NCBI RefSeq assembly: GCF_050920415.1
Contig: NZ_CP169309.1
Direction: 5' to 3' (one strand)
From: Escherichia coli
GTDB lineage: Bacteria > Pseudomonadota > Gammaproteobacteria > Enterobacterales > Enterobacteriaceae
Length of the DNA: 64,000 nt
Shown here piece after piece: positions 31,313 through 44,166 of this stretch. A program made the translations under genes and the position numbers. The notes under the pieces are model-generated. The model ran no database searches and was not told the origin of the DNA. It saw only the letters and a list, made by a program, of their open reading frames with translations. The first letter of the stretch is position 1; each line of letters begins with the position of its first letter.

Positions 31313-31403
31313 TAGACTGGCCCCCTGAATCTCCAGACAACCAGTATCACTTAAATAAGTGATAGTCTTAATACTAGTTTTTAGACTAGTCATTGGAGAA
31401 CAG

Positions 31404-31769
31404 ATGATTGATGTCTTAGGGCCGGAGAAACGCAGACGGCGTACCACACAGGAAAAGATCGCAATTGTTCAGCAGAGCTTTGAACCGGGGATGACGGTCT
31501 CCCTCGTTGCCCGGCAACATGGTGTAGCAGCCAGCCAGTTATTTCTCTGGCGTAAGCAATACCAGGAAGGAAGTCTTACTGCTGTCGCCGCCGGAGAACA
31601 GGTTGTTCCTGCCTCTGAACTTGCTGCCGCCATGAAGCAGATTAAAGAACTCCAGCGCCTGCTCGGCAAGAAAACGATGGAAAATGAACTCCTCAAAGAA
31701 GCCGTTGAATATGGACGGGCAAAAAAGTGGATAGCGCACGCGCCCTTATTGCCCGGGGATGGGGAGTAA
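31404..31769 (+). CDS. insC: IS2 OrfA (InsC), 121 aa, HTH protein
   Basis: [40 protein letters not shown]… matches remembered IS2 InsC; overlaps insD in the -1 frame (programmed frameshift arrangement). Confidence 0.85.
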
Positions 31770-32632
31770 GCTTAGTCAGCCGTTGTCTCCGGGTGTCGCG
31801 TGCGCAGTTGCACGTCATTCTCAGACGAACCGATGACTGGATGGATGGCCGCCGCAGTCGTCACACTGATGATACGGATGTGCTTCTCCGTATACACCAT
31901 GTTATCGGAGAGCTGCCCACGTATGGTTATCGTCGGGTATGGGCGCTGCTTCGCAGACAGGCAGAACTTGATGGTATGCCTGCGATCAATGCCAAACGTG
32001 TTTACCGGATCATGCGCCAGAATGCGCTGTTGCTTGAGCGAAAACCTGCTGTACCGCCATCGAAACGGGCACATACAGGCAGAGTGGCCGTGAAAGAAAG
32101 CAATCAGCGATGGTGCTCTGACGGGTTCGAGTTCTGCTGTGATAACGGAGAGAGACTGCGTGTCACGTTCGCGCTGGACTGCTGTGATCGTGAGGCACTG
32201 CACTGGGCGGTGACTACTGGCGGCTTCAACAGTGAAACAGTACAGGACGTCATGCTGGGAGCGGTGGAACGCCGCTTCGGCAACGATCTTCCGTCGTCTC
32301 CAGTGGAGTGGCTGACGGATAATGGTTCATGCTACCGGGCTAATGAAACACGCCAGTTCGCCCGGATGTTGGGACTTGAACCGAAGAACACGGCGGTGCG
32401 GAGTCCGGAGAGTAACGGAATAGCAGAGAGCTTCGTGAAAACGATAAAGCGTGACTACATCAGTATCATGCCCAAACCAGACGGGTTAACGGCAGCAAAG
32501 AACCTTGCAGAGGCGTTCGAGCATTATAACGAATGGCATCCGCATAGTGCGCTGGGTTATCGCTCGCCACGGGAATATCTGCGGCAGCGGGCTTGTAATG
32601 GGTTAAGTGATAACAGATGTCTGGAAATATAG
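31727..32632 (+). CDS. insD: IS2 OrfB (InsD) transposase with DDE/integrase core, 301 aa
   Basis: IS3-family transposase catalytic domain; length matches InsD. Confidence 0.85.
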
Positions 32633-41699: not shown

Positions 41700-43388
41700 T
41701 TGCAATTTGACTACATCATTATTGGCGCCGGCTCTGCCGGCAACGTCCTCGCGACACGTCTGACTGAAGATCCGAACACTACCGTGCTGCTGCTTGAAGC
41801 GGGCGGCCCGGACTATCGCTTTGACTTCCGTACCCAAATGCCCGCTGCGCTGGCGTTCCCGCTACAGGGTAAACGCTATAACTGGGCCTATGAGACCGAG
41901 CCGGAACCGTTTATGAACAACCGTCGCATGGAGTGCGGACGCGGTAAGGGGCTTGGTGGATCATCACTGATCAACGGCATGTGTTACATCCGTGGTAACG
42001 CGCTGGATCTCGATAACTGGGCGAAAGAACCCGGTCTGGAGAACTGGAGCTACCTCGACTGCCTGCCCTACTACCGCAAGGCCGAGACGCGCGATGTGGG
42101 CGAGAACGACTACCACGGCGCTGATGGCCCGGTAAGCGTGACCACCTCAAAACCGGGTGTCAATCCGCTGTTTGAAGCGATGATTGAGGCGGGCGTGCAG
42201 GCGGGCTATCCGCGCACAGAAGACCTTAACGGTTATCAGCAGGAAGGTTTCGGCCCGATGGACCGCACCGTCACGCCGCAGGGCCGTCGCGCCAGCACCG
42301 CGCGGGGTTATCTCGATCAGGCCAAATCGCGCCCGAACCTGACTATTCGAACTCACGCCATGACCGATCACATTATCTTTGACGGCAAACGCGCGGTAGG
42401 CGTCGAGTGGCTGGAAGGCGACAGCACCATCCCAACCCGCGCAACGGCCAACAAAGAAGTGCTGTTATGTGCAGGCGCGATTGCCTCACCACAAATCCTG
42501 CAACGCTCCGGCGTCGGCAACGCTGAACTGCTGGCCGAATTTGATATTCCGCTGGTGCATGATTTGCCCGGCGTGGGCGAAAATCTTCAGGATCATCTGG
42601 AGATGTACCTGCAATACGAGTGCAAAGAACCGGTTTCCCTCTACCCTGCCCTGCAGTGGTGGAATCAGCCGAAAATCGGTGCGGAGTGGCTGTTTGGCGG
42701 CACCGGCGTGGGTGCCAGCAACCACTTTGAAGCAGGCGGATTTATTCGCAGCCGTGAGGAATTTGCGTGGCCGAATATTCAGTACCATTTCCTGCCAGTG
42801 GCGATTAACTATAACGGCTCGAACGCAGTGAAAGAGCACGGCTTCCAGTGCCATGTCGGATCGATGCGCTCGCCAAGCCGTGGGCATGTGCGGATTAAAT
42901 CCCGCGACCCGCACCAGCATCCGGCGATTTTGTTTAACTACATGTCGCACGAACAGGACTGGCAGGAGTTCCGCGACGCGATTCGCATCACCCGCGAGAT
43001 CATGCATCAACCGGCGCTGGATCAATACCGTGGCCGCGAAATCAGCCCCGGCGCGGAATGCCAGACAGATGAGCAGCTCGATGAGTTCGTGCGTAATCAC
43101 GCCGAAACCGCCTTCCACCCATGCGGTACGTGCAAAATGGGGTACGACGAGATGTCCGTTGTGGATGGCGAAGGCCGCGTGCACGGGCTGGAAGGATTAC
43201 GCGTAGTCGATGCGTCAATTATGCCGCAGATTATCACCGGCAATCTGAACGCCACGACCATTATGATTGGCGAGAAAATGGCGGATATGATTCGCGGACG
43301 AGAAGCGTTGCCGAAGAGCACGGCAAGATATTTTGTGGCAAATGGGATGCCGGTGAGAGCGAAAAAAATGAGTCGTGATTTGAACTAA
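41700..43388 (+). CDS. betA: Choline dehydrogenase BetA (GMC oxidoreductase), TTG start
   Basis: TTG start preceded by AGGAGG, giving [18 protein letters not shown]… (FAD-binding GxGxxG); the longer track ORF 41655..43388 overlaps the betB 3' end. Confidence 0.85.
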
Positions 43389-44166
43389 CTCAGGAACCTA
43401 TCAGATTGAGAGTTACCGTTCTACGATAAGGACCGAATCCTTATATAAAAAACATAGGTAACTCTCATGCTTCATATCCAGTATTCATGATGCTGTTTTT
43501 TTGCTGATGTTTTTACCAGAATATTCCTGATACAGACTATTAATTCAAGCTTATCTGCGACAGATTTCATTTTCTGGATATATTATGAGTGACAAATCAA
43601 ACAGGATATCGATCTGATTGAAATTTTATTTTATCTGAAGAAAAAGATTCGTGTTATTCTGTTTATTATAGCTGTTTGTATGACAATGGTGCTATTATTT
43701 CTGTACATCAATAAAGACAATATAAAGCTGAGTTACAGCCTAAAAATAAACCACACAACATCAGGCATACTTGTAAGCTGTGATAGCAATAATAACTTTG
43801 CCTGTCAGACCACAATGACTGAAGATGTTATTCAGCGAATTACGAGTTTTTTAGACCAGTACTAATGCTAAAAATTGCCTTGTCAAAAAAATGGTAGATG
43901 AATACCAACAAAACTCTGGGCAGTAATAAACAGCATTCTGATAGAGAGTGCCTGTATATAGCTGAAGTGACAATGACCGGGAAGGGAACCCGTTTTCAGG
44001 AATGGATGCCTGTCTTTTTCACTGTAAATATCCTGGCATTACTAATGCCAGGATATTTAAAGAAGAGGAGCATAACCATGACAGAACGGGGTTAAGTCAG
44101 GTTGTCCTTAGCGCTATTCGCAACTTCGTGCCGCCTTCAGGTTTATGTCCAGACTTCATATCTCTC

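What the first reader, a model, noticed from the sequence alone, without database searches (positions are those of the whole stretch)
43407..43467. Nested inverted repeats immediately downstream of betA
An 11-bp perfect inverted repeat (TGAGAGTTACC … GGTAACTCTCA) encloses a second hairpin (ATAAGGA-ccgaa-TCCTTAT). The structure is not followed by a T-run on either strand and does not resemble REP units, so it is not an obvious terminator. It could be an RNA 3'-end stabiliser, a protein-binding site or a miniature mobile-element footprint.
Basis: seen in the sequence. Interest (0 to 1): 0.35.

Follow-up and report, generated by a model that had tools for sequence, protein, structure and literature searches.

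The report
Fossil insertion-sequence end downstream of betA
The nested hairpin after betA is a leftover piece of a dead IS481-family jumping gene (the stem-loop that once hid its transposase start signals); this is an ordinary kind of relic, though its main stem has stayed unusually intact.

Summary
TGAGAGTTACC (43407-43417) pairs perfectly with GGTAACTCTCA (43457-43467) around ATAAGGA-ccgaa-TCCTTAT, and the fold is far better than shuffles (-25.1 kcal/mol, z -5.8).

It is not a free-standing palindrome. Window 43365-43476 is the decayed left end of an IS481-family insertion sequence: a degenerate terminal inverted repeat that overlaps the last betA codons, then the leader hairpin, then ATG plus about three transposase codons. 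A covariance model built from 54 intact relatives matches it end to end (E about 1e-9).

In intact copies the hairpin sits between the left terminal repeat and the transposase ATG. Its 3' arm holds part of the Shine-Dalgarno sequence, the spacer and the A of the ATG, and it shows compensatory changes. Its antisense strand matches Rfam psRNA2 just below threshold. It therefore looks like an IS200/IS10-style device that limits transposase translation.

The relic lies downstream of betA in about 98% of complete E. coli genomes and is unannotated in K-12. The rest of the IS was lost. Strains like O157 keep more of it plus a 4.95-kb island.

The relic has diverged at 34 of 82 other positions but at 0 of 22 arm positions. 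This hints that it is now retained as a stem-loop in the betIBA 3' UTR, but that is untested.

It is a known kind of element and of low to moderate interest.

The parts
41700..43388 (+). betA (choline dehydrogenase, 562-aa form). Its last seven codons (ATG AGT CGT GAT TTG AAC TAA, from about 43368) lie inside the degenerate left terminal repeat of the IS relic.
   Evidence: RefSeq annotation of the identical strain, ORF list and the covariance-model alignment.
43365..43390 (+). Degenerate left terminal inverted repeat (IRL) of the IS481-family relic. It differs from the intact IRL TGTATTAGTCGCGACTTGATCTGACA at 9 of 26 positions.
   Evidence: Model positions 1-26 of R1 align here; differences counted; intact IRL and IRR read in L011.
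43391..43406 (+). Decayed linker between the IRL and the hairpin. The family-conserved TTGAAA motif is lost, and 9 of 16 positions differ.
43407..43417 (+). 5' arm of the outer stem (TGAGAGTTACC). In the parent IS it pairs with the ribosome-binding region.
   Evidence: family alignment and pair counts.
43418..43456 (+). Interior of the hairpin. The family's middle stem (GTTTTGAT/ATCAAAAC) has decayed. The inner stem ATAAGGA (43426-43432) / TCCTTAT (43438-43444) with loop CCGAA is retained and is perfect here.
   Evidence: 16 of 40 interior positions differ from the intact IS.
43457..43467 (+). 3' arm of the outer stem (GGTAACTCTCA). It corresponds to the remnant Shine-Dalgarno sequence ((A)GGT), the spacer and the A of the former transposase ATG.
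43467..43476 (+). ATGCTTCATA: the former transposase start codon plus codons 2-3 and one further base. The relic ends here. 43474-43476 (ATA) is the 3-nt microhomology at the deletion junction.
   Evidence: Identical to the IS and ylbG starts; junction comparison with O157:H7.
43479..43502 (+). Separate small hairpin (7 bp, loop CAU) followed by T7. It is a weak candidate intrinsic terminator that belongs to the ykgH-proximal DNA, not to the IS relic.
   Evidence: It was not flagged by the consensus scan, and the stem is poorer in K-12.

Best explanation
Window 43365-43476 is the fossil left end of an IS481-family insertion sequence. This IS clade also gave rise to the E. coli pseudogene ylbG and still occurs intact in a few E. 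coli and E. albertii strains and many other Gammaproteobacteria.

The nested inverted repeat is that element's leader stem-loop. In intact copies it lies between the left terminal repeat and the transposase ATG. Its 3' arm contains half of the Shine-Dalgarno core, the spacer and the A of the AUG. Folding in the transposase mRNA would therefore occlude ribosome binding (inferred from the anatomy and the covariation, by analogy with IS200). The complementary strand probably encodes a structured antisense RNA (inferred from near-threshold Rfam psRNA2 matches and a conserved antisense extended -10 motif).

At this locus the IS is dead. It inserted at the extreme 3' end of betA in the Escherichia lineage, so the betA stop codon now lies in the old terminal repeat. 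A 3-nt-microhomology deletion later removed everything beyond transposase codon 4.

The hairpin is now simply the first structure in the betIBA 3' UTR, on the same strand as betA. Its outer stem has been preserved while the rest of the relic decayed. The most likely present role, if there is one, is a stable 3' stem-loop that blocks 3'-to-5' exonucleases or read-through, as REP elements do. This last step is inference only; I put it at roughly 40%.
For: Homology:
- The covariance model R1, built from 54 intact IS leaders, hits window 43365-43481 full length on the + strand (52.4 bits, E 1.3e-9). It is the only significant hit in the window.
- blastn of IS nt 39-112 against 43403-43476 gives 81.6% identity, E 3e-12.

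Context of other copies:
- The same hairpin plus ATGCTTCATA heads ylbG, which scores as an IS481 transposase N-terminus (E 2e-25).
- It also heads full-length elements with matching IRL and IRR and a 346-aa transposase.
- 568 relatives were found in a one-genome-per-species bacterial and archaeal collection.

Structure in the family:
- 91% of cells are paired, and 8 pairs carry changes on both sides. No shuffle out of 500 reaches the observed value, and slid registers give 28-56% paired.
- The SD and AUG lie in the 3' arm.
- G-U pairs outnumber A-C 49 to 17, and the + strand is the more stable in 45 of 54 sequences.

Antisense RNA:
- psRNA2 (RF02349) matches the minus strand of 18 of the 20 IS loci scanned (and L011), up to 63.8 bits against a gathering score of 65. 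The matches start 2-5 nt upstream of the ATG in all but L083.
- ORF nt 7-17 (CATACTAnCAA) are about 98-100% conserved, including a four-fold degenerate site. On the antisense strand this reads TGnTAGTAT.

History:
- O157-type strains retain IS nt 4-165 plus more of the transposase gene (E 1e-18 and 6e-4), followed by 4,951 nt that are absent here. ATA lies at both breakpoints.
- The Enterobacter-like and related non-Escherichia betA loci examined lack the relic.

Preservation:
- 0 of 22 arm positions differ from the IS against 34 of 82 elsewhere (p 6e-5).
- At family-conserved columns the counts are 0 of 21 against 18 of 49 (p 7e-4).
- Placing the 16 substitutions at random gives -12.5 +/- 3.9 kcal/mol against the observed -22.9; only 1.2% of trials are as stable.
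- The arms are invariant in 10 E. coli lineages that cover the main identity classes among the genomes carrying the relic.
Against: - No experiment shows that the hairpin represses translation in this IS family, and no sigma-70-type promoter was detected in the IS left end. How the mRNA and the antisense RNA are made is therefore inferred.
- The Rfam matches are below the gathering score, and the window copy gives no Rfam match at all.
- For a present-day role at betA, published E. coli Term-seq tables list no 3' end between betA and ykgH. However, bet is poorly expressed in the conditions used.
- Some strains tolerate loss of the structure. One has IS1 inserted inside it (L008), and UTME-7 has a divergent version without the right arm (L006).
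- The preservation statistics rest on one relic compared with a present-day IS consensus and on 10 sampled genomes.
Confidence: 0.85

Rival explanations
1. It is a purely neutral fossil. The hairpin is an IS relic with no present function, and the intact outer stem reflects chance, a low local mutation rate or DNA-level quasi-palindrome correction rather than selection.
For: - No mapped 3' end lies at the hairpin in the published tables.
- The structure is interrupted by IS1 in one strain and replaced by a divergent half-copy in another.
- The family's middle stem has decayed here.
- Nothing is annotated at this position in K-12.
Against: - 0 of 22 differences in the arms against 34 of 82 elsewhere (p 6e-5).
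- 0 of 21 against 18 of 49 at columns that are conserved in active copies (p 7e-4).
- Only 1.2% of random placements of the same number of substitutions keep the observed stability.
- The arms are invariant across 10 diverged E. coli haplotypes whose interiors and flanks vary.
Confidence: 0.45
2. [quoted passage not shown]
For: The arms begin TG and end CA like many IS ends, and the sequence occurs more than once per E. coli genome.
Against: - Every other copy examined sits at a fixed place inside an IS481-family element, 42 nt in from the true terminal repeat and abutting the transposase ATG.
- Homology in the window extends 42 nt to the left and 9 nt to the right of the arms.
- The flanks (GAT / TGC) show no target-site duplication.
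- No stand-alone copies were seen.
Confidence: 0.02
3. The hairpin is itself the Rho-independent terminator of the betIBA operon.
For: It is a stable stem-loop 18 nt after the betA stop on the sense strand.
Against: - No U-tract follows it.
- The structure is inherited from an IS leader, where it precedes an ORF.
- A separate small hairpin with a T7 run lies 12 nt downstream.
- No 3' end is recorded here.
Confidence: 0.05
4. It is a palindromic protein-binding site (an operator or recombination site), for instance one used in gain or loss of the adjacent ipbA/hyxR island.
For: It has perfect dyad symmetry, and the boundary of the variable DNA lies 9 nt from the right arm.
Against: - The breakpoint is explained by a 3-nt (ATA) microhomology deletion inside the decayed transposase gene.
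- The symmetry is inherited from the IS leader, where compensatory changes and G-U pairs point to an RNA structure.
- No integrase-type core or arm sites were seen.
Confidence: 0.03
5. The relic still expresses a psRNA2-like antisense small RNA from the minus strand.
For: The minus strand folds well (-26.7 kcal/mol, z -4.0), and intact relatives match Rfam psRNA2 on that strand.
Against: - The inferred antisense promoter (TGnTAGTAT in transposase codons 3-6) is cut off by the deletion at 43476.
- The window gives no psRNA2 match even at E <= 10.
- The minus-strand hit to R1 is insignificant (12.1 bits, E 2.3).
Confidence: 0.03

Closest known systems
IS481-family insertion sequences (the clade represented in E. 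coli by the truncated pseudogene ylbG and by full-length copies annotated 'IS481 family transposase')
   Same: The window element aligns end to end with the first 112 nt of these elements: terminal repeat, linker, leader hairpin, ATG and about three codons.
   Different: It has no transposase gene and no right end, and the terminal repeat has decayed at 9 of 26 positions. It is a solo left-end relic, not an IS.
IS200 tnpA 5' UTR stem-loop plus antisense art200 (PMC4513863); also IS10 fold-back inhibition and RNA-OUT (PMC5006887)
   Same: Both have a long stem-loop in the transposase leader that contains the Shine-Dalgarno sequence, together with a cis-encoded antisense RNA complementary to the leader and the first codons. 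The logic is the same: keep transposase translation low.
   Different: The IS family (IS481, a DDE transposase) and the sequence are unrelated. Here the mechanism is inferred from sequence only, whereas it was shown experimentally for IS200 and IS10.
Rfam RF02349 psRNA2 ('Proteobacterial sRNA psRNA2')
   Same: Its consensus is the antisense strand of the left end of a related IS: the same outer stem (GGGUUAC...GUAACCC) followed by the terminal-repeat sequence. Of the 20 intact IS loci scanned (plus L011) match it at 33-64 bits, in all but one starting just upstream of the ATG.
   Different: All matches are below the gathering score of 65, and the window relic does not match at all. I could not find the source paper in the held library.
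REP/BIME-type 3' stem-loops that stabilise upstream mRNA (my own knowledge of the REP literature, not checked here)
   Same: It is a stable extragenic hairpin just after a stop codon, without a U-tract, in the 3' UTR of an operon.
   Different: The sequence is unrelated, it occurs once in this window, and it derives from a mobile element's leader. The stabilising role is not demonstrated.

Membership tests
IS481-family insertion sequence (as a functional element) | Matched terminal inverted repeats at both ends (TGT...) | tested here: not met
   Only a degenerate left repeat is present (43365-43390, 9 of 26 positions changed). No right end lies anywhere nearby. The intact IRL and IRR are seen in L011.
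IS481-family insertion sequence (as a functional element) | DDE (rve) transposase ORF of about 346 aa | tested here: not met
   Only ATG plus about three codons remain (43467-43476). tblastn of the transposase finds nothing at this locus.
IS481-family insertion sequence (as a relic, i.e. homology to the left end) | Significant full-length match to a model of the family's first ~118 nt, in the same order (IRL, linker, hairpin, ATG) | tested here: met
   R1 hit at 43365-43481 on the + strand, model positions 1-118, 52.4 bits, E about 1e-9. blastn gives E 3e-12.
IS481-family insertion sequence | Target-site duplication flanking the element | not testable with these tools
   The right end has been deleted, so the two flanks cannot be compared.
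SD-sequestering transposase leader hairpin (IS200/IS10 type) | Shine-Dalgarno sequence and/or start codon lie in one arm of a conserved stem | tested here: met
   In 54 intact relatives the 3' arm is (G/A)AGGTAACTCTC followed by ATG. 94.6% of cells in the outer helix are paired.
SD-sequestering transposase leader hairpin (IS200/IS10 type) | Structure maintained by compensatory change | tested here: met
   8 pairs carry changes on both sides, for example GC to AU at 47:111, AU to CG or GC at 48:110, and UA to CG (5 sequences) at 57:90. No shuffle out of 500 reaches the observed values.
SD-sequestering transposase leader hairpin (IS200/IS10 type) | Disrupting the stem raises transposase translation | not testable with these tools
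   This needs reporter fusions or toeprinting.
Rfam RF02349 psRNA2 | Score at or above the curated gathering threshold (65 bits) | tested here: not met
   The window gives no match at E <= 10. Intact relatives score 33.4-63.8 bits on the minus strand.
Intrinsic (Rho-independent) terminator | G+C-rich stem immediately followed by a U-tract | tested here: not met
   No T-run directly follows the stem on either strand. A different small hairpin with a T7 run lies at 43479-43502.
MITE | The arms are the element's termini, flanked by a target duplication, with stand-alone copies elsewhere | tested here: not met
   The arms are internal to the IS. Homology extends beyond both arms. The flanks GAT and TGC are not a duplication.
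REP/BIME or other E. coli extragenic repeat families | Many dispersed copies and the family consensus sequence | tested here: not met
   There is one copy in the 64-kb window. E. coli genomes have a median of two places, the second being ylbG where read. No Rfam family matches.

The most novel reading that the evidence does not exclude
After the IS died, E. coli kept and now uses its translational-control stem-loop as a structural element of the betIBA 3' UTR (an exonuclease or read-through barrier between the osmoprotection operon and ykgH or the ipbA/hyxR island). This would be a case of a mobile element's regulatory RNA hairpin being domesticated for host mRNA 3'-end control. A linked point is that this widespread IS481-family clade would carry an undescribed IS200-like dual control: a cis hairpin plus the psRNA2 antisense RNA.
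Probability: 0.35. Interest if true: 0.45.

Novelty: new member of a known kind. Interest (0 to 1): 0.3.

Why it matters
- It explains an unannotated, near-universal 112-nt feature of the E. coli betA-ykgH intergenic region, present in K-12 but with nothing annotated there, as an IS481-family relic.
- It shows that the betA stop codon, and the 556-aa versus 562-aa BetA length polymorphism, lie inside that relic.
- It fixes the direction of the ipbA/hyxR island polymorphism as a deletion in K-12-type strains.
- It links the Rfam family psRNA2 to the antisense strand of an IS481-family left end.
- If the preserved stem proves functional, it would be a neat but modest example of host exaptation of an IS regulatory hairpin.

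Tried and rejected
- Rfam scan of the window region at E <= 10 gave only chance-level hits (snoRNA, STnc410, lysM-TM7).
- The consensus promoter and terminator scans found nothing at the hairpin in the window and no sigma-70-type promoter in the intact IS left end. The IS10-style idea that the native transcript starts inside the hairpin is therefore not supported. The conserved TTGAAA-N17-TTTGAT lacks the -11 A.
- An upstream mini-hairpin around the conserved TTGAAA looked complementary in several relatives, but the register is inconsistent between sequences, so I did not pursue it.
- Literature searches for ylbG, psRNA2 (and psRNA6, 11, 14, 15) and IS481 with RBS structure found nothing that describes this element.
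- The Term-seq supplementary tables of PMC7815308 list no 3' end between betA and ykgH.
- I tried to reach other Escherichia species through BetA protein clusters, but only E. coli and Shigella members were listed. The nearest non-Escherichia betA loci lack the relic.
- The MITE, terminator, operator and REP readings were rejected, as set out under the rival explanations and membership tests.

Full report

Yes. The window reads ...gat TGAGAGTTACC gttctacg ATAAGGA ccgaa TCCTTAT ataaaaaacata GGTAACTCTCA tgcttcata.... The outer arms lie at 43407-43417 and 43457-43467, and the inner hairpin at 43426-43444. A pattern search finds the two arms with 0 mismatches and only one other 1-mismatch 11-mer in 64 kb, against about 0.6 expected by chance.

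As RNA, the + strand folds at -25.1 kcal/mol against -10.3 +/- 2.6 for dinucleotide shuffles (z -5.8, 0 of 200 as good). The - strand folds at -26.7 kcal/mol (z -4.0). betA ends at 43388, 18 nt before the hairpin. No T-run abuts the stem. A separate 7-bp hairpin followed by T7 lies at 43479-43502.

**2. What is it?**

The window is E. coli; over 43300-43700 it is 100% identical to strain MFDS1022581. A 79-nt query around the hairpin matches 5340 of 5426 complete E. coli genomes, with a median of two places per genome.

The second place read lies downstream of mnmH and runs straight into the pseudogene ylbG. There the hairpin's right arm ends in the ylbG start codon (...GGTAACTCTCATGCTTCATACTGCC...). 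ylbG scores as the N-terminus of an IS481-family transposase (E 2e-25).

Full-length versions exist on E. coli and E. albertii plasmids. In L011 the element is about 1.2 kb. It has IRL TGTATTAGTCGCGACTTGATCTGAC, a matching IRR and a 346-aa transposase gene, and the hairpin sits between the IRL and the ATG. Full-length copies occur in only 77 of 5426 E. coli genomes. The clade is widespread, however: 568 relatives were found in a one-genome-per-species bacterial and archaeal collection, the best 80 at 77-98% protein identity across Gammaproteobacteria and some Betaproteobacteria.

**3. Formal test of homology**

I aligned 54 distinct left ends (A2) and built a covariance model from them (R1). 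The model hits the window once, full length, on the + strand: 43365-43481, 52.4 bits, E about 1e-9. It also hits the betA-downstream copies of K-12-like and O157-like strains. blastn of the IS against the window gives IS nt 39-112 = 43403-43476, 81.6% identity, E 3e-12.

The feature is therefore 112 nt long, not 61:
- degenerate IRL, 43365-43390
- decayed linker, 43391-43406
- hairpin, 43407-43467
- ATGCTTCATA, 43467-43476

The IRL overlaps the last betA codons. The K-12-type stop (TGA) and the window's stop (TAA, six codons later because of an A7 instead of an A6 run) both lie inside the relic. BetA orthologues in other Enterobacterales end 1-12 residues after the conserved PVR motif. The IS therefore landed in or just after the variable C-terminal tail. 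The closest non-Escherichia betA loci have no relic (no R1 hit at E <= 10), so the insertion appears specific to the Escherichia lineage.

**4. History of the locus**

In strains that carry the ipbA (fimX)/hyxR/hyxA/adhesin island between betA and ykgH, the relic continues past ATGCTTCATA into recognisable but decayed transposase sequence. IS nt 4-165 match at 72.7% identity (E 1e-18), and there is a further tblastn match to residues 44-89.

In O157:H7 ECP19-798, 4,951 nt separate ...CTTCATA from TCCAGTATT..., and ATA is present at both ends. The window and K-12 arrangement is therefore a deletion through 3-nt microhomology, with its junction at 43474-43476. It removed the rest of the dead IS together with the island.

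**5. How the hairpin works in its parent element (inferred)**

Across the 54 relatives the structure has three tiers:
- an outer stem, GAGAGTTACC / GGTAACTCTC
- a middle stem, GTTTTGAT / ATCAAAAC
- a short apical stem

Overall 91% of cells are paired, against 28-56% in slid registers. Eight pairs carry changes on both sides, for example GAGCGTTACC/GGTAACGCTC in Methylotenera, GAGAAAGTTACC/GGTAACTTTCT in Acinetobacter, and CTTTGAT/ATCAAAG in Vibrio. No shuffle out of 500 reaches the observed measures.

The 3' arm is (G/A)AGGTAACTCTC-ATG. It therefore contains half of the SD core, the whole spacer and the A of the AUG. G-U pairs outnumber A-C 49 to 17, and the + strand is the more stable in 45 of 54 sequences, which mildly favours folding of the sense mRNA.

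There is also evidence for an antisense RNA:
- Rfam's psRNA2 model matches the minus strand of 18 of the 20 IS loci scanned (and L011), at 33-64 bits against a gathering score of 65. The matches start 2-5 nt upstream of the ATG in all but L083.
- ORF nucleotides 7-17 (CATACTAnCAA) are about 98-100% conserved, even at a four-fold degenerate Thr site. Other four-fold sites in the first 90 nt are only 33-67% conserved.
- On the antisense strand this block reads TGnTAGTAT, an extended -10 promoter placed to start an RNA at the complement of the start codon. This is my inference.

[quoted passage not shown] The IS10 case is related (PMC5006887). No sense-strand sigma-70 promoter was detected in the left end, so the origin of the transposase mRNA is unknown.

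**6. What it does here**

The relic cannot transpose. It also lacks the inferred antisense promoter, which the deletion cut off. It lies on the betA sense strand, so it is transcribed, if at all, as the start of the betIBA 3' UTR.

The relic has decayed unevenly relative to the intact enterobacterial IS:

| Region | Positions differing |
|---|---|
| IRL | 9 of 26 |
| Linker | 9 of 16 |
| Hairpin interior | 16 of 40 |
| The two arms | 0 of 22 |
| TGCTTCATA | 0 of 9 |

- Arms against the rest give Fisher p 6e-5.
- Restricting the count to columns at least 90% conserved among active copies gives 0 of 21 against 18 of 49 (p 7e-4).
- Placing the 16 hairpin-region substitutions at random gives -12.5 +/- 3.9 kcal/mol, against -22.9 observed; 1.2% of trials are as stable.
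- The arms are identical in 10 E. coli lineages that span the main identity classes, while flanks and interior vary.

This points to constraint on the stem. The most natural reading is a protective or read-through-limiting 3' stem-loop.

The evidence is indirect, and there is counter-evidence. No 3' end is recorded there in the published tables. One strain has IS1 inside the hairpin. Another carries a divergent half-copy. I rate a present function at roughly 40% and a neutral fossil at roughly 45%.

**7. Comparison with what is known, and novelty**

The element is a solo-end relic of a known IS family, and the hairpin belongs to a known class of transposase translational-control structures.

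What appears not to be recorded:
- the relic itself (nothing is annotated between betA and ykgH in MG1655)
- the overlap of the relic with the betA stop codon
- the link between Rfam psRNA2 and the antisense strand of an IS481-family left end (no description was found in the held literature)

**Verdict**

The finding is a new member of a known kind, with interest of about 0.3.

Noticed in passing
window 43360-43388: The betA stop codon lies inside the IS relic. An A6/A7 homopolymer polymorphism (GCGAAAAAA(A)TGAGT) switches BetA between 556 aa (...AKK*, K-12 type) and 562 aa (...AKKMSRDLN*, this window and O157). Both forms are common among E. coli.
   Followed up: partly
window 43586-43865 (ykgH remnant): ykgH is a pseudogene in this strain. 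A 1-nt deletion in codon 3 (ATGAGTG-ACAAATC against ATGAGTGAACAAATC elsewhere) gives an early stop. RefSeq annotates only a C-terminally incomplete fragment, about 320 nt shorter than the intact 669-nt gene.
   Followed up: partly
window 43474-43476; L103:177-5147: O157:H7 and other strains carry 4,951 nt here: the decayed transposase remainder, ipbA/fimX, hyxR, hyxA and adhesin/autotransporter fragments. This window and K-12 lack the segment. ATA at both breakpoints indicates a microhomology deletion.
   Followed up: yes
window 43479-43502: A small hairpin (CAGUAUU-CAU-GAUGCUG) is followed by T7. It is a weak candidate intrinsic terminator in the DNA shared with island-bearing strains. Its stem is poorer in K-12 (GATGCGGGCTTTTT).
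   Followed up: partly
window 31359-32632: An IS2 copy is present. Its two ORFs match the IS2 TnpA repressor (E 4e-83) and IS2 TnpB transposase (E 1e-219). It is unrelated to the finding and was noticed through a weak tblastn hit of the IS481 transposase.
   Followed up: partly
L008:3001-3100 (E. coli FDAARGOS_1289): In this strain an IS1 is annotated about 55 nt after the relic match stops at query position 38 (inside the hairpin's interior), followed by aldo/keto reductase genes instead of ykgH. The exact junction was not read. The intact hairpin is therefore dispensable in at least some strains.
   Followed up: no
L006:1563-1649 (E. coli UTME-7): A strongly diverged version of the relic's left half (TTAAGCGTTACCGTCTTGAGATAGG...) follows betA and then runs into different DNA (an aldo/keto reductase fragment, an AraC-like HTH fragment and IS1). 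The R1 hit is only 17.3 bits, E 0.2.
   Followed up: partly
IS relatives, ORF nt 7-17 and 28-36 (e.g. L011:2579-2608): Synonymous sites in transposase codons 3-5 (CAT ACT AAC) and in AAA CAC AAA are almost invariant across 54 relatives, while other degenerate sites vary freely. On the antisense strand this block reads as an extended -10 (TGnTAGTAT) with an upstream TTGTGT.
   Followed up: partly
IS relatives, alignment A2 columns 28-45: The sequences on either side of the invariant TTGAAA motif between IRL and hairpin are often mutually complementary (for example ATCT...AGAT, CTTC...GAAG), but in different registers in different relatives. This could be a small extra helix or a protein site.
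   Followed up: no
NZ_CP169399.1 (the genome identical to the window over 43300-43700): The 79-nt hairpin query finds only one place in this genome, whereas the E. coli median is two. The ylbG copy may be absent or too diverged in this strain.
   Followed up: no
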